A stretch of 29,073 nucleotides of DNA from a virus (Duplodnaviria; Heunggongvirae; Uroviricota; Caudoviricetes). Shown in pieces: positions 12,781 to 18,744 of the stretch. Within the stretch, counting starts at the first letter, position 1, and each line of letters starts with the position of its first letter. The position numbers were made by a program, and so were the translations under genes. A model generated the notes under the pieces. The model did not search any database. It saw nothing but the letters and a program-made list of their open reading frames with translations, and had not been told where the DNA came from. Where the stretch lies: IMG/VR virus record IMGVR_UViG_2778261396_000002, one strand, 5' to 3'.

Positions 12781-13188
12781 TTATTTTATTGATTTATTTT
12801 TACGCGCTTTAAGCATTTCTTCGAAGAGTTTGTTGAAGTTTTCTACTCTTGCGCGCATTTCAGACAGCAAGGCTTCCTGCTCGGAAGATGGAAGAGCATC
12901 GAATAATTCGATCAATTCTTTGTGGTTGGGAGTTAGCTCTGTTTCCACATGAAGTTCTTGTGCAGGCACTGGTGCCTTGTCTTCGTCACCAAACATTAGC
13001 CATGTAGGTGAGCACTTCAGAGCATCCGCTAAAGCAAACAATCGTTTTCCGACTGGCTGGGTTTCGTCTCTTTCCCATTGTGAAATTGTGACGTGAGCAA
13101 CTCCAGCGAGGCGCGCGGCTTCTCGTTGTGTTAAGCGTAATTCTTTTCGTCGCGCCAGAACTCGCTGGCCCAGGGTTCTTGTATCCAT
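12781..13188 (-). CDS. dicA: HTH (Xre/cI-like) repressor DicA homolog (135 aa)
   Basis: ORF translation; HTH LTQREAARLAGVAHVTISQWE; C-terminal …LKCSPTWLMFGDEDK…EMRARVENFNKLFEEMLKAR resembles DicA; N-terminus diverged from K-12 as recalled. Confidence 0.8.
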   Translation of the reverse strand: MDTRTLGQRVLARRKELRLTQREAARLAGVAHVTISQWERDETQPVGKRLFALADALKCSPTWLMFGDEDKAPVPAQELHVETELTPNHKELIELFDALPSSEQEALLSEMRARVENFNKLFEEMLKARKNKSIK

Positions 13189-13210
13189 AGTTAGGTAATT
13201 CTAATTTTTC

Positions 13211-13255
13211 TTGACTTAGGTATCCCGCGCACAATAATGTTAGAAAAATCTAACA
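13211..13255 (+). promoter_or_regulatory. dicC promoter (-35 TTGACT, 17-bp spacer, -10 ATAATG) overlapped by operator TGTTAGAAAAATCTAACA (13238-13255)
   Basis: Sigma70-like hexamers read directly; palindrome immediately downstream of -10; located in divergent dicA/dicC intergenic region. Confidence 0.5.
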
Positions 13256-13269
13256 AGAGGGGGGCTTTG

Positions 13270-13497
13270 ATGCTTAAAGTTGACGCAATTACTTTTTTTG
13301 GCAGCAAAACAAAGCTTGCCAATGCCGCAGGAGTGAGGCTGGCAAGTGTTGCTGCTTGGGGGATACTGGTTCCTGAAGGTCGCGCGATGCGTCTACAGGA
13401 GGCATCTGGCGGGGAGCTTCAGTATGATCCCAAAGTTTATGATGAATATCGTAAGACGAAGCGGGCGGGGCGGTTGAACAATGAAAATCACTCCTGA
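13270..13497 (+). CDS. dicC: Cro-like regulator DicC (75 aa)
   Basis: Internal ATG of ORF 13237..13497: MLKVDAITFFGSKTKLANAAGVRLASVAAWG…EGRAMRLQEASGGELQYDPKVYDEYRKTKRAGRLNNENHS. Confidence 0.85.
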   Translation: MLKVDAITFFGSKTKLANAAGVRLASVAAWGILVPEGRAMRLQEASGGELQYDPKVYDEYRKTKRAGRLNNENHS

Positions 13498-14002
13498 ACA
13501 GGCTCGTGAGGCTCTGGATGCCTGGATATGTCGACCAGGAATGACACAGGAGCAGGCGACGATATTAATCACTGAAGCATTCTGGGCTTTGAAAGAGCGC
13601 CCGAACATCGATGTTCAGCGTGTCACAGATGAAGGTGGCGCGGTTGATCAGCGAGCGCTTGGTGTTAATCGAGTGAAGATATTCGAACGCTGGAAGGCTA
13701 TCGATACCAGGGATAAGCGTGAAAAGTTCACGGCGCTAGTGCCTGCGATTATGGAGGCTATCCGGATTAGTGATTTCAGGTTGTATCGTGAAATTACTGA
13801 CGGAAAAAGCATCACGTGCATGATCGCCGGGTTAAACAAAGAATATGGCGATGTGGTGGAGTCCGGACTGCTTTTTGCTGATCCTGCCGTAGTGGATCGT
13901 GAAACTGACGAACTTATAGAAAAAGCAATTGCTTTCAAGCTTGCGTATCGACAGCAATACCAACAAAAAGCTGGATGGAATTATGAGCCTTCTTTTTGCT
14001 GA
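13481..14002 (+). CDS. YdaT-like prophage protein (cII-position gene), 173 aa
   Basis: ORF translation MKITPEQAREALDAWICRPGMTQEQA…; position directly after cro-like gene; family assignment from memory only. Confidence 0.45.
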   Translation: MKITPEQAREALDAWICRPGMTQEQATILITEAFWALKERPNIDVQRVTDEGGAVDQRALGVNRVKIFERWKAIDTRDKREKFTALVPAIMEAIRISDFRLYREITDGKSITCMIAGLNKEYGDVVESGLLFADPAVVDRETDELIEKAIAFKLAYRQQYQQKAGWNYEPSFC

Positions 14003-14948
14003 ACGCCCACTGGTTATAAACACGCAGCTGGCAATGAAAATTGGCTTAAACGAAGCCATTGTTTTGCAACAACTGCACTACTGGTTGAGAGATACCAACT
14101 CCGGCATGGAATGTGATGGTGTTCGCTGGATTTATAACACAACGGAACAATGGCTGGAACAGTTCCCATTCTGGTCAGAGTCAACGTTAAAGCGCGCGTT
14201 TGCAAGTCTGAAAACGCTGGGGCTTTTGCGTTGTGAAAAGCTCAATAAATCAAAGCGCGATATGACCAATTTCTACACGATCAACTATGGGAGCGAGCTT
14301 TTAGATGGTGGCAAATTGAGCGAATCCATCGGTTCAAAATGCGCCGCTCCATCAGGTCAAAATGACACGATGGAAGAGGTCAAAATGAAACGCTCCATTG
14401 GTTCAAAACGACCCAATGTCATCGGGTCAAAATGGCCTGATGATCTTACAGAGAATACAACAGAGATTACTACAGAGAATAAAAACACTTTTCGTCCGGA
14501 AGCTTCGCAACCGGACCCGCAGACGACTGAACAGGATTTTTTAACCCGGAACTCCGACGCGGTTGTGTTTAGTGCGAAAAAACGCCAGTGGGGTAGCAGG
14601 GAGGATTTGGCGTGTGCGCAGTGGATCTGGGGGCGGATCGTGGGTCTCTACGAACAGGCAGCCAGTGATGATGGCGAGATCATGCGACCAAAAGAGCCTA
14701 ACTGGACTGCCTGGGCCAATGACGTGCGCACAATGCGGATGCTGGATGGCAGAAGCCACAGACAAATTTGCGAAATGTTTGGTCGGGTTCAGCGAGATCC
14801 ATTCTGGGTAAAAAACATCATGAGCCCGTCAAAGCTCCGCGAAAAATGGGACGAACTGGTCATCCGCCTGGGACGTTCACCTGTACAGCGTTGTGTTAAT
14901 CATATTTCTGAACCGGATACAGAAATTCCGCCTGGTTTCAGAGGATAA
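13983..14948 (+). CDS. Phage replication initiation protein (lambda O-like, HTH N-domain), 321 aa
   Basis: ORF 13929..14948; ATG 13983 MSLLFAERPLVINTQLAMKIGLNEAIVLQQLHYWL…; repeated SIGSK peptide motifs encoded by DNA iterons. Confidence 0.7.
   Translation: MSLLFAERPLVINTQLAMKIGLNEAIVLQQLHYWLRDTNSGMECDGVRWIYNTTEQWLEQFPFWSESTLKRAFASLKTLGLLRCEKLNKSKRDMTNFYTINYGSELLDGGKLSESIGSKCAAPSGQNDTMEEVKMKRSIGSKRPNVIGSKWPDDLTENTTEITTENKNTFRPEASQPDPQTTEQDFLTRNSDAVVFSAKKRQWGSREDLACAQWIWGRIVGLYEQAASDDGEIMRPKEPNWTAWANDVRTMRMLDGRSHRQICEMFGRVQRDPFWVKNIMSPSKLREKWDELVIRLGRSPVQRCVNHISEPDTEIPPGFRG
14327..14436 (+). repeat. Five direct iteron-like repeats (core GGT(T)CAAAA(T/C)G, ~23-bp spacing) inside the replication gene – candidate prophage origin
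   Basis: Cores at about 14331, 14355, 14378, 14400, 14424 read directly from sequence. Confidence 0.55.
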
Positions 14949-14988
14949 GTGTTGATTTCAGGTCATGAGGTAATTTTAAGGGGGACTT

Positions 14989-15411
14989 GTGGCAAAAGTT
15001 TTTACACAAGAAGAGCGGGAAAAAATTAAATGGCAGGTGGTGGAACTCGTGCGCCAGAGCGGCCGTGAGACGTTACGGCAACTGGAAGCTAAAACAGGTG
15101 CGACTAGATATCTGATGAGCGTTCTTGCCAGAGAGCTGGTAGCCAGTGGCGATGTATACAACTCCGGCTACGGGTTATTCCCCTCTGAACAGGCGCGTAA
15201 GGACTGGCAAAACGCCCGCAAAAAACTCTCGAGGGCAAAGGTGAAGAAACCTGCTGTGGTTGATCCGGACCTTATCTGGTCATCACCTGACGGAGAAATA
15301 CGTCGCTACGACAGTCGCCTAAACATAATCTGTCGCGAGTGCCGGAAGAGCGAAGTTATGCAGCGCATACTGGCTTTCTATCAGGGTAATTTTCAGGACG
15401 TGGCGCAGTGA
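14989..15411 (+). CDS. Hypothetical prophage protein (140 aa, GTG start)
   Basis: ORF with AGGGGGA SD 4-5 nt upstream of GTG; stop overlaps next gene start (GTGA). Confidence 0.45.
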   Translation: MAKVFTQEEREKIKWQVVELVRQSGRETLRQLEAKTGATRYLMSVLARELVASGDVYNSGYGLFPSEQARKDWQNARKKLSRAKVKKPAVVDPDLIWSSPDGEIRRYDSRLNIICRECRKSEVMQRILAFYQGNFQDVAQ

Positions 15412-15854
15412 GTGCACCGGCAACCATTCTTGATATGTGCTGTGGCAGCCGCATGTTCTGGTTCGATAAGTCTGACGAACGGGCGATATTCAGCGATATC
15501 AGAAAAGAAGGATACACATTACGCAATGGGAGACGCTTGATTATCAGCCCTGACATTATCGCAGATTTTCGTGCATTATCATTTGCAGACGCATCTTTTT
15601 CGATGGTTGTATTAGACCCTCCGCATCTTGAGAGTGTTGGTGATAACGCCTGGATGGGAAAGAAATATGGACGGCTGAATAAAGATGCCTGGCGTGATGA
15701 TTCGCGACAGAGATTTAAAGAAGCCTTTCGGGTGTTGAGGCCGCACGGCGTTCTGATTTTTTAATGGAATGAAACGCAAATACCGGTAAGCCAGATTCTG
15801 GCACTGACAGACAGAAAACCTGTTATCTGTCAACGAACAGGGAAAAAACGATAA
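15408..15854 (+). pseudogene. SAM-dependent (gamma-class-like amino-) methyltransferase remnant with in-frame TAA at 15762-15764
   Basis: Motif I-like LDMCCGSRMF and motif IV-like VVLDPPH; same frame continues after the TAA for 29 more codons; total still short for a DNA MTase. Confidence 0.4.
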
Positions 15855-16026
15855 AACCCACTGGATTATTTTTATGAAAGAGGCATCCAGTGAGTAGATT
15901 CGTAAGGCTACAGATACGTATATCTGAATAATTAAATTCAGTTCTGTAAATAAAATTTAATCCTTAACCGGATGGATTTCTGCACCCTCAGAACATCAGG
16001 AGGCCGCCCGAAAGGGCGGTAGTGAA

Positions 16027-16137
16027 ATGCGAAAGTTCAAAATTATTATTGAAACGGGAATAGCTGGTGGAGATTTTGAGGATGTATTCGAAGTGGACGA
16101 TGACGCAACACCTGAGGAAATTCATGACGGAGCATAA
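16027..16137 (+). CDS. Small acidic ORF (36 aa) preceded by AGGAGG and a GAAA-tetraloop hairpin
   Basis: ATG 16027 … MRKFKIIIETGIAGGDFEDVFEVDDDATPEEIHDGA*; below ORF-track size cutoff; manual translation. Confidence 0.3.
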   Translation: MRKFKIIIETGIAGGDFEDVFEVDDDATPEEIHDGA

Positions 16138-16186
16138 GAAATTTTCTTTAACTACTGCAATTACTCATACCACGAAATAAAAGACG

Positions 16187-16378
16187 ATGAGGAAGAACAA
16201 AGTGGCTGATTTTTGTTCAGCTAAATATAACATCAGTTTTGAAGAGCGGGATGAACTATTAATGGACTATGGTGAGTTACGCGGTGGAAGTGCTGCTGAT
16301 GTCGAATCCTAGCGTGATGACTATGAAGCGGGAAAAACTCCGGTCGAAGCATATTGTGATGAGTGGGGCGATGAATGA
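16187..16378 (+). pseudogene. Small ORF (63 codons) with in-frame amber TAG at 16310-16312
   Basis: MRKNKVADFCSAKYNISFEERDELLMDYGELRGGSAADVES*RDDYEAGKTPVEAYCDEWGDE*; stop overlaps next ORF start (ATGA). Confidence 0.35.
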
Positions 16379-16662
16379 GCGAGATTAATTATCAGGAAGG
16401 GCATGAAACGGCGGGGCAAGCAAAACCAGTGGCATGGCGATATCGCTACGTGAAAAAAGGCGTTACGGACTTTCAGGGGAAGTAGTGGTCTGGTGACTGG
16501 AAATATGTACCGAAAAAAGAGGATTGTAACGACAGGCCGAACTATCAAATTCAGGCCTTATTCACTGCCTCACCAGTCCCAGTTACATCAGAAGAACTGG
16601 TTAAAGCTGTGCACTTTTATGAACAACTAAAACGCGAAAATCCACCAACATCCGGCAACTAG
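16375..16662 (+). pseudogene. Small ORF (95 codons) with in-frame amber TAG at 16483-16485
   Basis: MSEINYQEGHETAGQAKPVAWRYRYVKKGVTDFQGK*WSGDWKYVPKKEDCNDRPNYQIQALFTASPVPVTSEELVKAVHFYEQLKRENPPTSGN*. Confidence 0.35.
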
Positions 16663-16916
16663 ATTAATGGATTAACTATGTCGGTTAAACGACCAGCCAA
16701 CTGAAAAAGCGGAAACCTGATTACAGGTTGCCAGATAAGGCAATGAGCTACCTGGCGCGGAACGGACTGATAAGTATGGGGAATGTTTTACGATGAACCT
16801 TTAGACTAAAGAGTTTGTAACGCTATGTAAGTGATTTTTTCTGGTTTAGATATTTATATGTCCGGCCAAATTGAGGTGTGTTTAAATGTAATTGCACATT
16901 GATTGTAGGAGGAATA

Positions 16917-17096
16917 ATGAAAAACGCATTGCAGTTTTTGTTTGTTGCGTTCTGGTTGTTCGCATCATGTATGCCCATCATCTTCACAGCAAGGTATATG
17001 GAAAAAGTTGATGTTTTGATATTAATATTTGGATATATAAATGCCCTTTTTTTAGGGGTGTTCATGGCGGTCATGTGCATTGAATACTGGCGGTAA
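16917..17096 (+). CDS. Small two-TM membrane protein (59 aa)
   Basis: AGGAGG SD at 16907-16912 then ATG 16917: MKNALQFLFVAFWLFASCMPIIFTARYMEKVDVLILIFGYINALFLGVFMAVMCIEYWR. Confidence 0.45.
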   Translation: MKNALQFLFVAFWLFASCMPIIFTARYMEKVDVLILIFGYINALFLGVFMAVMCIEYWR

Positions 17097-17430
17097 ATAC
17101 AGCGAACTCCATTGGTTTAGTTGGATATTTACTGTGCTGGACAAAAACGGTTTGCGGGGAAATCTTAGTTAAGTAGAATGACTGCGGGTGCTTGAGGCTA
17201 TCTGCCTCGGGCATGGACACCAACGGCAGATAGAGAAAAGCCCCAGTTAACATTACGCGTCCTGCAAGACGCTTAACATTAATCTGAGGCCAATTTCATG
17301 CTAGACACATGTAGGTTAGCCTCTTACGTGCCGAAAGGCACGGAGAAGCAGGCTATTGTTAACACCAAGCTGTAATGTCCCCTTTGAACCATTCTAAAAT
17401 GTCCCCAGACAATTCTCTGGGGGATTTTTC

Positions 17431-18744
17431 ATGATCAAAGAGACTGTTACGATGAGTCATAAGGAACTCCACCGACTTCAGATTATTCAGGAACAAGCTG
17501 CGGCACGCATTGGCATTTCTATTCGGCAGGTTAAACGTCTGGTGCAACGGTATAGAAATGAAGGGCCTTCTGGTCTGGTTTCCCACCGACGTGGAAAGCG
17601 TCCTAATAATTCCTTTTCTACTGAATTCAGAGCAACAGTAATTTCACTCCTCAAAGGCCGTTACGCTGATTTTGGACCTACGTTTGCGTGCGAAAAATTG
17701 CGCGAGATACACGGTTTATCTTTATCCGTTGAAACTCTCAGAAAGTGGATGATAGAAGAGGGGTTATGGCGTGAACGCCGTCGTAAAATTGCCCGTATAT
17801 ATCAACGCCGCATGCGACGACCATCTTACGGTGAACTGATCCAGATTGATGGCTCACCTCATGACTGGTTTGAAAATCGAGGCCCCAGATGTACACTGAT
17901 CGTTTTCATTGATGATGCCACCAGTGCGTTGATGGCGTTGCGTTTTGTGCCTGCTGAAACAACCCGGGCTTACATGGAAACCCTCCGGGGTTACCTTAAT
18001 GATCATGGCGTACCGCTCGCTCTCTACTCTGATAGACACAGTATATTCAGGGTAAATAACCCAGAGCGGGAAGGTGAGCTGACCCAGTTCACTCGTGCGA
18101 TAAAGACACTGGGCATCGAGCCAATCCATGCCAACAGCCCGCAGGCAAAAGGGCGGGTAGAGCGCGCCAATCAGACACTACAGGACAGGCTGGTCAAAGA
18201 AATGCGGCTTCAGAATATCAGTGATATTGAAACAGCAAATGCATGGTTGCCGACCTTTATTGAAGCCTATAACAACCGGTTCGCTACGTCGCCTCGTACT
18301 ACTGATAATGCTCATCTTGATGTGCACCATTCTGAAGAGGAACTGGGTTATATCTTCAGCCTACAGGCGAAGCGCGTTCTGTCTAAAAATCTCACTTTCC
18401 AGTACAAAAGCAGTGCGTTTCAGGTACGCAGTGAGGGCCGGGGATATCGACTTAGGCATTCGGTTGTTACTGTATGCGAGAACTTTGACGGTGAAATTAA
18501 CGTTCTGTATGACGGGAAAGCGCTGGGCTGGGAAAAGTATGTTGATGGCCCGGAGCCTATACCACTGGATGATGAAAAGAGTGTCCATGAACGAGTGGAT
18601 AATGCCCGTATTGATTTACGCTCAAAATACTATGTTAAACCTAAAGCTGACCATCCCTGGCTTACGCGCCGAACGCAAAGTCATCAGCAAGTTAAGCCCC
18701 CGAAGTTACCTAAAAAGAAGCCTGATCCCGATAAAAAAGATTGA
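17431..18744 (+). CDS. DDE transposase, integrase-core (rve) type with N-terminal HTH; ISNCY(IS1202/ISPlu15-group)- or IS481-like (437 aa)
   Basis: ORF translation: HTH (GISIRQVKRLVQRY), DDE-type core (…IQIDGSPHDW…ALYSDRHSIF…ANSPQAKGRVERANQTLQ…); family from memory. Confidence 0.8.
   Translation: MIKETVTMSHKELHRLQIIQEQAAARIGISIRQVKRLVQRYRNEGPSGLVSHRRGKRPNNSFSTEFRATVISLLKGRYADFGPTFACEKLREIHGLSLSVETLRKWMIEEGLWRERRRKIARIYQRRMRRPSYGELIQIDGSPHDWFENRGPRCTLIVFIDDATSALMALRFVPAETTRAYMETLRGYLNDHGVPLALYSDRHSIFRVNNPEREGELTQFTRAIKTLGIEPIHANSPQAKGRVERANQTLQDRLVKEMRLQNISDIETANAWLPTFIEAYNNRFATSPRTTDNAHLDVHHSEEELGYIFSLQAKRVLSKNLTFQYKSSAFQVRSEGRGYRLRHSVVTVCENFDGEINVLYDGKALGWEKYVDGPEPIPLDDEKSVHERVDNARIDLRSKYYVKPKADHPWLTRRTQSHQQVKPPKLPKKKPDPDKKD

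What the first reader, a model, noticed from the sequence alone, without database searches (positions are those of the whole stretch)
14989..15894. Translationally coupled 140-aa protein and methyltransferase-like gene carrying an in-frame ochre codon
The GTG start of the methyltransferase-like ORF overlaps the stop of the preceding 140-aa ORF (GTGA). The MTase-like product has motif I-like DMCCGSRMF and motif IV-like DPPH but is cut by TAA at 15762-15764. The same frame continues for 29 codons (WNETQIPVSQILALTDRKPVICQRTGKKR), then hits a second TAA. This looks like a recently inactivated nin-region methylase, and what the 140-aa partner does is unknown.
Basis: partly seen in the sequence, partly recalled or inferred. 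Interest (0 to 1): 0.5.

Follow-up and report, generated by a model that had tools for sequence, protein, structure and literature searches.

The report
Dead methyltransferase gene in Qin prophage
This is an ordinary decayed gene: a small phage methyltransferase in an E. coli Qin-type cryptic prophage, knocked out by a stop codon plus a one-base insertion, next to an intact Ren-like gene.

Summary
GTG at 15408 overlaps the TGA of the 140-aa ORF. The 118-codon methyltransferase ORF ends at TAA 15762-15764, and the same frame runs 29 more codons to TAA 15852-15854.

Homologues show this is a pseudogene. Intact relatives are 160-164 aa and read through with Lys, which is 98% conserved, so the change was AAA to TAA. 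The "second TAA" is not a second nonsense mutation. An extra G at 15840-15842 shifts the frame, and the real C-terminus (GKNDKTHWIIFMKEASSE, stop TAG 15895-15897) lies in the +1 frame.

The allele also has substitutions at five columns conserved at 89-98%. Both lesions are present in about 472-475 of 5,426 complete E. coli genomes, so the inactivation is not recent. RefSeq already marks the same allele "frameshifted; internal stop" in another strain. An O157:H7-lineage copy carries an independent W95* in 202 genomes.

The intact family (PHROG 954) is a minimal class I SAM methyltransferase with a DPPH motif. It has no target-recognition domain and no known substrate.

The 140-aa partner is DUF977/LygF. 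It has an N-terminal winged helix and a C-terminal motif shared with lambda Ren, and sits where ren sits. It is not an obligate partner of the methyltransferase.

Interest is low.

The parts
14989..15411 (+). Intact DUF977 / LygF / Ren-like gene (140 aa): N-terminal winged helix-turn-helix, low-confidence middle, C-terminal helix motif shared with lambda Ren
   Evidence: Pfam PF06163 E=5.1e-29, 101.5 bits against a cut-off of 22.1. PHROG 142 'Ren-like exclusion protein' E=1.6e-47. BLASTP to lambda Ren matches residues 112-131 to 73-92 with E=2e-6; hhalign probability 72%. AF2 residues 11-80 have pLDDT of about 87-94 in a helix / helix-turn-helix / wing / helix arrangement. Foldseek finds only generic winged-helix hits, E>=5.6e-3.
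15408..15411 (+). GTGA: start codon of the methyltransferase ORF overlapping the stop codon of the DUF977 gene
   Evidence: Read directly from the sequence. The same 4-nt overlap is annotated in O104:H4 and CAU16175 prophages.
15408..15897 (+). Whole methyltransferase pseudogene. It would encode 162 aa if codon 119 were AAA and one G were removed.
   Evidence: Six-frame translation and DNA alignment to intact copies. RefSeq annotates the same allele in strain 13E0767 as 'SAM-dependent methyltransferase, frameshifted; internal stop'.
15408..15764 (+). Remaining 118-codon ORF (RefSeq WP_001310834.1, called 'class I SAM-dependent methyltransferase' in ATCC 8739). It contains motif I (ILDMCCGSRMF) and motif IV (DPPH).
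   Evidence: Family-invariant D9, D30, R32, P48, DPPH70-73, W95, E105 and R108 are all present.
15762..15764 (+). Nonsense mutation at codon 119: TAA where intact copies have AAA (AAC in the O104:H4 copy). The A-to-T change is at 15762.
   Evidence: DNA alignment. The column is Lys in 65 of 66 family members. The exact 47-mer occurs in 475 of 5,426 genomes.
15765..15839 (+). Codons 120-144 in the original frame. They are homologous to the conserved C-terminal third of the family, including invariant W120 and P138.
15840..15842 (+). GGG run carrying a +1 insertion (intact copies have GG). This is the frameshift lesion.
   Evidence: DNA alignment. A 47-mer spanning it occurs in 472 genomes, 467 of them exact.
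15852..15854 (+). The 'second TAA': an out-of-frame stop exposed by the frameshift (GAT AAA in the true frame)
15843..15897 (+). True C-terminal codons in the +1 frame (KNDKTHWIIFMKEASSE) and the original stop TAG 15895-15897. They include near-invariant F155 and K157.
13211..13238 (+). pR-like sigma-70 promoter candidate (TTGACT-16-AATAAT) upstream of the cro/dicC-like gene. It is the probable source of transcription for the rightward operon containing both genes.
   Evidence: Consensus scan only, 10 of 12 matches. Operon structure comes from annotation. Function is inferred, not shown.

Best explanation
The 15408-15897 stretch is a dead orphan methyltransferase gene in the early rightward (cro - ydaT-like - O-like - ren-like) operon of a Qin-type cryptic lambdoid prophage of E. 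coli.

Shown: the ancestral gene encoded a protein of about 162 aa. It belongs to a large phage family of minimal class I SAM-dependent methyltransferases with a DPPH motif IV and no target-recognition domain. Two lesions disable it. One is AAA to TAA at the near-invariant Lys119. The other is a +1 G insertion at 15840-15842 that puts the last 17 codons out of frame. Substitutions have also accumulated at conserved positions. The 118-aa remnant lacks the end of the strand at residues 110-121, the helix at 127-131 and the last two strands of the sheet.

Inferred: the remnant cannot fold into an active enzyme, and the locus does nothing now. The intact enzyme is inferred to methylate an exocyclic amino group of a nucleic-acid base, most likely phage DNA after induction, possibly as protection from restriction. 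Its substrate has never been demonstrated.

The upstream 140-aa gene is an intact DUF977/LygF protein, a winged-helix protein related to lambda Ren at its C-terminus. It sits at the ren position. Its 4-nt overlap with the methyltransferase is ordinary phage operon packing, not evidence of a two-component system.
For: - Homologues read through. 244 of 254 phage tblastn hits cover at least 80% of the read-through product. Intact copies are 160-164 aa in O104:H4, O111, a Klebsiella phage and an Stx2c phage.
- Lesions are defined by DNA alignment.
- K119 is Lys in 65 of 66 diverse members. W120 and P138 are invariant, and G141, F155 and K157 are near-invariant; all lie downstream of the stop.
- Extra substitutions: P58S, F69L, L99S, G102R, G141C at columns conserved 89-98%.
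- In a 1.84-billion-protein library the matched core spans residues 6-158 in most full-length relatives.
- The TAA allele is in 475 complete E. coli genomes and the frameshift allele in 472, always single-copy and chromosomal. No restored Qin-type allele was found.
- RefSeq labels the same allele a pseudogene in strain 13E0767.
- The flanking nin-like region is also decayed: a DUF7167 gene with an internal stop, a frameshifted ORF and an IS.
- Between two Qin alleles, the pseudogene plus the decayed region differ at 18 of 2,023 nt, against 3 of 1,911 nt in the intact upstream genes (p=0.0016).
- An independent W95* occurs in the O157:H7 lineage, in 202 genomes.
- DUF977/Ren evidence.
Against: - Pairwise dN/dS of the repaired allele against intact copies (0.15-0.27) is only slightly above intact-versus-intact values (0.13-0.21).
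- The Qin-branch excess of non-synonymous changes (15 to 11, against 15 to 24 pooled) is not significant (p=0.14). Most divergence therefore pre-dates the loss of constraint.
- The two post-lesion Qin alleles differ by 4 synonymous and 2 non-synonymous sites. That is not the ratio expected for free drift, but the numbers are tiny.
- RefSeq still calls the 118-aa ORF a protein in many genomes.
- The higher divergence of the decayed region could reflect a recombination boundary rather than relaxed selection.
- No expression or methylome data were available.
- The 'DNA' substrate of the family rests only on the DPPH motif and a PHROG label.
Confidence: 0.93

Rival explanations
1. The inactivation was selected rather than neutral. 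An orphan, possibly low-specificity methyltransferase on a resident prophage is harmful to the lysogen, for example through conflict with methylation-dependent restriction (Mrr/McrBC-type) or epigenetic disturbance. Knock-outs would therefore be repeatedly fixed in E. coli.
For: - Two independent knock-outs in different prophage lineages are each widespread: K119* plus frameshift in about 475 genomes and W95* in 202 genomes. Together that is at least 677 of 969 E. coli places.
- HannyBb carries only a 57-aa remnant.
- Copies in sequenced phages and the Stx2c phage are mostly intact.
- Upstream genes of the same operon remain intact.
Against: - Each allele's count may reflect one event inherited clonally or spread with the prophage, so there are only 2-3 independent events.
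- Neighbouring nin-region genes are decayed too, as expected for neutral erosion of a cryptic prophage.
- The operon is presumably repressed in lysogens, which limits any cost.
- No toxicity data exist.
Confidence: 0.15
2. The 118-aa truncated product is a functional protein in its own right, for example a SAM-binding or regulatory fragment.
For: - The ORF keeps its start, the Shine-Dalgarno-like AGGA and the overlap with the upstream gene.
- All N-terminal invariant residues are retained.
- It is identical in hundreds of genomes and is annotated as a CDS by RefSeq.
Against: - It lacks part of the strand at 110-121 and all of the last two strands and the helix of the Rossmann-like sheet, including invariant W120 and P138.
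- It has non-conservative changes at conserved core positions: F69L next to DPPH, G102R and P58S.
- The O157 lineage is cut at a different place, residue 95, so no common truncated form is preserved.
- Identity across genomes reflects shared ancestry, not constraint.
Confidence: 0.03
3. Programmed recoding, meaning TAA read-through plus +1 ribosomal slippage on GGG-AAA-AAA-C before the rare CGA and the stop, yields low levels of full-length enzyme.
For: A +1 slip of tRNA-Lys on the A6 run before CGA-TAA would restore exactly the homologous GKNDKTHW frame. This is read directly from the sequence.
Against: - It requires two rare events in series, and TAA is the least leaky stop codon.
- Intact relatives have neither feature, so these are derived lesions, not conserved signals.
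- Conserved catalytic-core residues are also mutated.
- RefSeq treats the allele as a pseudogene.
Confidence: 0.01
4. Sequencing or assembly error creates an apparent stop and frameshift in a gene that is really intact.
For: Both changes lie in or next to homopolymer runs (T6, G3/A6), which are error-prone.
Against: The same 47-mers occur in 475 and 472 independently sequenced complete genomes and in phage record PhiR42_1.
Confidence: 0.005

Closest known systems
PHROG phrog_954 'DNA methyltransferase': small (about 157-170 aa) phage and prophage class I SAM-dependent methyltransferases (RefSeq name 'class I SAM-dependent methyltransferase', e.g. WP_001275731.1 of E. coli O104:H4, QBP07693.1 of Klebsiella phage ST846-OXA48phi9.2)
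   Same: - 81-83% amino-acid identity across the whole repaired length to the Stx2c-phage and Klebsiella-phage copies.
- Same motif order (ILDxCCG ... D30 ... PD ... DPPH ... FKW ... KTHW).
- Same position after early replication genes, with a 4-nt overlap to the upstream gene.
   Different: The window copy has TAA at codon 119, a +1 frameshift at codon 145 and five substitutions at conserved columns, so it is a pseudogene. The family itself has no experimentally defined substrate that I could find. It is absent from REBASE-based methyltransferase inventories of O104/O111 STEC (PMC6602927), although those serogroups carry intact copies.
Amino-methyltransferases with a (D/N/S)PP(Y/F/W/H) motif IV: M.TaqI (N6-adenine DNA), Trm11/TrmN/Trm14 (m2G tRNA), RsmC, TrmM
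M.EcoGII, the non-specific adenine DNA methyltransferase on a cryptic prophage of O104:H4 (PMC5778455)
   Same: An orphan methyltransferase carried silently on an E. coli cryptic prophage. It is the conceptual precedent for prophage methyltransferases that are not active in the lysogen.
   Different: M.EcoGII is a beta-class enzyme (motif IV before motif I), much larger, intact but unexpressed, and unrelated in sequence. No such relationship was detected here.
Lambda Ren (NP_040633.1), for the 140-aa neighbour
   Same: - Same PHROG (phrog_142, E=1.6e-47).
- Same gene position directly after the replication genes, with a 4-nt overlap.
- Shared C-terminal motif N-x4-ECR-x-S-x2-M-x-R-x-LA-x-Y (BLASTP E=2e-6).
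- From my own knowledge, not from a paper retrieved here: Ren is known genetically to let lambda escape Rex exclusion (Toothman and Herskowitz 1980).
   Different: Direct pairwise similarity is limited to about 20-23 residues (hhalign probability 72%). DUF977 is 44 aa longer, with a different middle part. Lambda Ren does not hit Pfam DUF977. No Rex-related phenotype is known for DUF977/LygF.

Membership tests
Class I SAM-dependent methyltransferase fold | Glycine-containing SAM-binding loop after strand 1 (motif I) and an acidic residue at the end of strand 2 | tested here: met
   ILDMCCGSRMF is present at codons 7-17. D9 and D30 are invariant and G13 is conserved at 90% or more in 66 family members, and all are present in the window copy.
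Class I SAM-dependent methyltransferase fold | Complete seven-stranded Rossmann-like sheet | tested here: not met
Amino-methyltransferases (N6-A / N4-C / N2-G type) | (D/N/S)PP(Y/F/W/H) catalytic motif IV | tested here: met
   DPPH at codons 70-73 is invariant in 66 of 66 members. There is a faint PF01555 N6_N4_Mtase similarity around it in one relative (E=0.003).
Sequence-specific DNA methyltransferases | Target-recognition domain | tested here: not met
   The intact family is only about 160 aa, and the whole length is taken up by the catalytic fold. N- or C-terminal extensions in some relatives have no Pfam domain.
Sequence-specific DNA methyltransferases | Demonstrated methylation of DNA | not testable with these tools
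   No methylome or biochemical data were available. The family is not among the named methyltransferases in the STEC methylome study.
PHROG phrog_954 | Significant full-length HMM match | tested here: met
   The intact O104:H4 relative, at about 83% identity to the repaired window product, gives E=5.3e-86 over residues 5-162. The window copy aligns to that relative over its whole length.
Pseudogene (disabled copy of a coding gene) | Premature stop and/or frameshift relative to intact homologues, at positions homologues translate | tested here: met
   TAA replaces a Lys conserved at 98%, and there is a +1 G insertion with the C-terminus recoverable in the other frame. RefSeq labels the same allele 'frameshifted; internal stop'.
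Pseudogene (disabled copy of a coding gene) | Signs of relaxed selection | tested here: inconclusive
   For relaxed selection: five substitutions at columns conserved 89-98%, and a roughly 5.7-fold higher divergence than the intact neighbours (p=0.0016). Against: dN/dS of 0.15-0.27 is barely raised, and the branch N:S test gives p=0.14.
Pfam DUF977 (PF06163), for the 140-aa ORF | HMM score above the gathering threshold over the full profile | tested here: met
   101.5 bits against a cut-off of 22.1; residues 1-136 match profile positions 1-134 of 134.
Lambda Ren family, for the 140-aa ORF | Sequence homology to lambda Ren | tested here: inconclusive
   Same PHROG, 142. Direct similarity covers only the C-terminal 20-23 residues (E=2e-6; hhalign probability 72%).
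Lambda Ren family, for the 140-aa ORF | Position immediately downstream of the replication genes in the pR operon | tested here: met
   Here the order is O-like gene then DUF977. In lambda it is O, P, ren with a 4-nt P/ren overlap.
Lambda Ren family, for the 140-aa ORF | Protection from Rex exclusion | not testable with these tools
   This is a genetic phenotype and needs plating assays.

The most novel reading that the evidence does not exclude
The minimal DPPH methyltransferase family has no target-recognition domain. It comprises about 2,000 clusters at 50% identity and occurs in phages of Proteobacteria, Firmicutes, Actinobacteria and Bacteroidetes. It may be an uncharacterised low-specificity or non-DNA methyltransferase (ssDNA, RNA or a small molecule) used by phages early after induction. 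Its repeated knock-out in resident E. coli prophages, at least 677 of 969 chromosomal copies through two independent lesions, may reflect selection against it in lysogens rather than neutral decay.
Probability: 0.12. Interest if true: 0.45.

Novelty: already known. Interest (0 to 1): 0.1.

Why it matters
It matters little for biology. It is one more eroded accessory gene in the well-known Qin cryptic prophage, and RefSeq already flags it as a pseudogene in sibling genomes.

There are two practical points. First, many RefSeq genomes still carry the 118-aa fragment (WP_001310834.1) as a 'class I SAM-dependent methyltransferase' protein, which could mislead methyltransferase inventories and methylome interpretation. 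Second, the intact family is widespread and experimentally untouched, has no target-recognition domain and is missing from REBASE-style lists. It would be a reasonable target for a simple clone-and-sequence methylome test.

Tried and rejected
- **Pfam, NCBIfam and PDB sequence searches for the methyltransferase.** These gave only marginal generic hits: Methyltransf_11/25 near threshold, nothing in NCBIfam, and no PDB relative with E below 1. No curated family could be assigned.
- **Fused domains in longer relatives.** Their extensions have no Pfam hits, apart from one relative (P0290) with an N-terminal Polysacc_synt match just below the gathering threshold (27.2 bits against 28.2, E=3.3e-6), which looks like a gene-call artefact.
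- **dN/dS and branch-specific N:S counts to date the loss of constraint.** Not significant.
- **Literature.** 'LygF' is only a gene label from Salmonella Sdf-region and Rac annotations, and 'DUF977' appears in one unrelated paper. No paper links Qin to this methyltransferase. There was no hit for a phage 'DPPH motif' methyltransferase. The STEC methylome paper does not list this enzyme.
- **DUF977 structure.** Only the N-terminal winged helix is confident, and Foldseek hits are all weak (E>=5.6e-3). No specific functional assignment follows.
- **An obligate DUF977-methyltransferase pair.** Rejected. Of 24 phage records with DUF977, only PhiR42_1 has the methyltransferase next to it, plus a remnant in HannyBb. 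The methyltransferase follows unrelated genes in Klebsiella and O157/O111 elements, and most of the family is in taxa that lack DUF977.
- **An internal restart after the TAA.** The overlapping ATG at 15764 opens only a 2-codon ORF (sequence).

Full report
**Where this is.** The window is a Qin-type lambdoid cryptic prophage of E. coli, inserted next to rspB. It carries dicB, DicF, a cI/cro-type immunity region, relBE, hokD, the cspB/F/I genes and the essD-rrrQ lysis genes. Positions 15408-15900 are 100% identical to many E. coli chromosomes, for example ATCC 8739. Positions 14900-16000 are 99.9% identical to Escherichia phage PhiR42_1 from ECOR13.

The finding lies in the rightward early operon: a cro/dicC-like gene, a ydaT/cII-like gene, an O-like replication gene, the 140-aa ORF and the methyltransferase ORF. 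A pR-like promoter candidate lies at 13211-13238 (consensus match only).

**Check of the observation.**
- The 140-aa ORF runs 14989-15411.
- GTG 15408 overlaps its TGA, giving GTGA.
- The 118-codon ORF carries DMCCGSRMF and DPPH and ends at TAA 15762-15764.
- The same frame continues with WNETQIPVSQILALTDRKPVICQRTGKKR to TAA 15852-15854.

**What the homologues show.** I ran tblastn with the read-through product against 50,697 phage records. It hit 254 records, and 244 aligned over at least 80% of the query, running straight across the TAA to residue 146-147. Intact relatives are 160-164 aa. They include E. coli O104:H4 WP_001275731.1, O111 WP_000145667.1, Klebsiella phage QBP07693.1 and an unannotated Stx2c-phage copy.

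A DNA alignment defines two lesions.
- ATT TTT AAA TGG has become ATT TTT TAA TGG, an A-to-T change at 15762.
- ACA GGA AAA AAC GAT AAA has become ACA GGG AAA AAA CGA TAA, through one extra G at 15840-15842.

So the "second ochre codon" is an out-of-frame stop created by a +1 frameshift. In the +1 frame the sequence reads GKNDKTHWIIFMKEASSE and ends at TAG 15895-15897, which matches the C-terminus of intact proteins. With both lesions repaired the gene would encode 162 aa.

**How damaging the lesions are.** A search of 1.84 billion representative proteins found 2,008 relatives (E<=1e-3). In most full-length relatives the matched core spans residues 6-158. I aligned 66 diverse members, 40-79% identical to the reference.
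- Invariant columns: D9, D30, R32, P48, D70-P-P-H73, W95, E105, R108, W120, P138.
- Lys119, the mutated codon, is Lys in 65 of 66 members.
- G141, F155 and K157 are conserved at 90% or more.

All residues from 119 onward are lost from the 118-aa product. The AlphaFold2 model of an intact relative (pLDDT 94.4, pTM 0.89) places a strand at 110-121, a helix at 127-131 and strands at 138-144 and 150-156. The remnant therefore lacks roughly the last third of the sheet.

The window allele also carries P58S, F69L (next to DPPH), L99S, G102R and G141C, at columns conserved 89-98%.

**How old the inactivation is.**
- The exact 47-mer around the TAA occurs in 475 of 5,426 complete E. coli genomes.
- The 47-mer around the frameshift occurs in 472 genomes, 467 of them exact.
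- Both are always single-copy and chromosomal.
- A Qin-type 47-mer with AAA restored has no exact full-length match.
- A second Qin allele (strain 13E0767, 98.8% identical) shares both lesions. RefSeq annotates it as [quoted passage not shown].

The lesions therefore pre-date the spread and diversification of this prophage segment. "Recently inactivated" is not apt at the strain level, and the pseudogene status is already on record.

Several measures suggest the loss is young relative to the age of the family, but none of them gives a date.
- Pairwise dN/dS of the repaired allele against intact E. coli copies is 0.15-0.27, against 0.13-0.21 among intact copies.
- Qin-branch-specific changes are 11 synonymous to 15 non-synonymous, against 24 to 15 pooled on the other branches (p=0.14).
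- Between the two Qin alleles, the pseudogene and the decayed region downstream differ at 18 of 2,023 nt. The intact ydaT-like, O-like and DUF977 genes differ at 3 of 1,911 nt (p=0.0016). This fits relaxed constraint but could also mark a recombination boundary.

**Context of decay.** Directly downstream lie a DUF7167 gene with an internal stop (16027-16209), a frameshifted ORF (16375-16796), a sok-like RNA (17186-17357) and an ISNCY-type IS (17431-18744). The whole nin-like region is eroding.

A different prophage-like element in the O157:H7 lineage carries the same methyltransferase with an independent TGG-to-TAG change at the invariant W95. That exact 47-mer is in 202 genomes. Phage HannyBb keeps only a 57-aa remnant. 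At least 677 of the 969 E. coli places are thus visibly dead, from at least two independent events. I regard neutral decay in cryptic prophages as the default. Selection against a resident orphan methyltransferase is a possible but untested alternative.

**What the intact enzyme is.**
- It matches PHROG 954 "DNA methyltransferase" (E=5.3e-86).
- It matches no specific Pfam or NCBIfam family and no PDB sequence.
- Motif I precedes an invariant DPPH motif IV, which is typical of enzymes that methylate exocyclic amino groups. This is established knowledge of the (D/N/S)PP(Y/F/W/H) motif.
- There is no room for a target-recognition domain in 160 aa, and extensions in longer relatives have no recognisable domain.
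- A REBASE-based inventory of STEC methyltransferases does not list it (PMC6602927).

So "DNA methyltransferase" is a label, not a tested function. My inference is an early-expressed nucleic-acid amino-methyltransferase of low or unknown specificity.

**The 140-aa neighbour.**
- It is Pfam DUF977 (101.5 bits against a cut-off of 22.1). Phage records annotate it as "LygF", a name that carries no functional study I could find.
- It falls in PHROG 142 "Ren-like exclusion protein" (E=1.6e-47).
- It shares a C-terminal motif with lambda Ren: NIICRECRKSEVMQRILAFY against NLVFKECRQSAAMKRVLAVY (BLASTP E=2e-6; hhalign probability 72%).
- It occupies the ren position, immediately after the replication genes. 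In lambda, P and ren overlap by the same 4 nt.
- AlphaFold2 gives a confident N-terminal winged helix-turn-helix (pLDDT about 87-94 for residues 11-80) and a low-confidence C-terminal part. Structural hits are generic winged-helix proteins only.

The DUF977-methyltransferase junction recurs in some E. coli prophages: Qin-type, O104:H4 and CAU16175. The two genes are not an obligate pair, however.
- Of 24 phage records with DUF977, only PhiR42_1 has the methyltransferase beside it, plus a remnant in HannyBb.
- The methyltransferase follows unrelated genes, with the same overlap, in a Klebsiella phage and in the O157 element.
- Most of the methyltransferase family occurs in phages of Gram-positive and other hosts that lack DUF977.

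The GTGA overlap is ordinary phage operon packing. Real translational coupling was not tested.

**Rivals.**
- A functional 118-aa fragment is unlikely, given the missing core strands, the mutated conserved residues and a different truncation point in O157.
- Recoding is formally conceivable at the frameshift, through a +1 slip on the A6 run before the rare CGA codon. It would also require TAA read-through, and neither feature is conserved in relatives.
- Sequencing error is excluded by the hundreds of independent genomes.

**Verdict.** This is an inactivated nin-region methyltransferase with one nonsense mutation plus one frameshift. It is old and fixed in the Qin lineage rather than recent, and RefSeq already flags it. 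The partner gene is an intact Ren-like DUF977 protein. The finding is ordinary. Its only wider interest is that the intact family, which has no target-recognition domain, is widespread and uncharacterised.

Noticed in passing
window 12781-13497 compared with L008/L009: The cI-like repressor and cro-like genes of the window differ strongly from DicA/DicC of ATCC 8739 and 13E0767. From the ydaT-like gene to the IS the sequences are about 99-100% identical. This is a mosaic immunity swap within Qin-type prophages, and the best overall match is PhiR42_1 of ECOR13.
   Followed up: partly
window 13481-15411 compared with 15408-17430 (against L009): Two Qin alleles differ at 3 of 1,911 nt in the intact ydaT-like, O-like and DUF977 genes, but at 18 of 2,023 nt in the methyltransferase pseudogene and the decayed region downstream (Fisher p=0.0016). 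This is either relaxed constraint or a recombination boundary exactly at the DUF977/methyltransferase junction.
   Followed up: partly
L006:2501-2974 (E. coli O157:H7, element next to a dusA fragment): An independent inactivation of the same methyltransferase family: TGG to TAG at the invariant W95. The exact 47-mer is present in 202 complete genomes. The Stx2c-phage copy (L003) is intact at 164 aa.
   Followed up: yes
window 17186-17357 (+): An Rfam sok antitoxin RNA match (104 bits against a gathering score of 59) lies immediately upstream of the IS insertion. This suggests a hok/sok-type locus or remnant in the nin-like region, separate from the annotated hokD at about 20.7 kb.
   Followed up: no
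window 17431-18744 (+): A continuous 437-aa ISNCY/IS1202-like transposase ORF. The gene annotated as 'ydfW' (18595-18744) is simply its last 49 codons. RefSeq records for ATCC 8739 split this into a partial transposase pseudogene plus ydfW.
   Followed up: partly
window 13929-14948 (+): The last 20 or so residues of the O-like replication protein resemble the C-terminus of primosomal protein DnaT (NCBIfam NF002770, E=0.006, far below its cut-off). No P/DnaC-like helicase-loader gene lies between it and the Ren-like gene, unlike in lambda or the CAU16175 prophage.
   Followed up: no
window 16027-16209 and 16375-16796 (+): Two more decayed genes sit directly after the methyltransferase: a DUF7167-family ORF with an internal stop, and a frameshifted ORF with an internal stop.
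   Followed up: partly
window 15999-16018 (+): A perfect GC-rich hairpin, GGCCGCCC-GAAA-GGGCGG(T), lies just upstream of the DUF7167 pseudogene start. It has no T-run, so it is not a canonical terminator.
   Followed up: no
L002:3536-3742 (Escherichia phage HannyBb): The feature annotated 'DNA methyltransferase' (68 aa) is only the first 57 or so codons of this family, fused to unrelated sequence. It is another remnant, annotated as a protein.
   Followed up: partly
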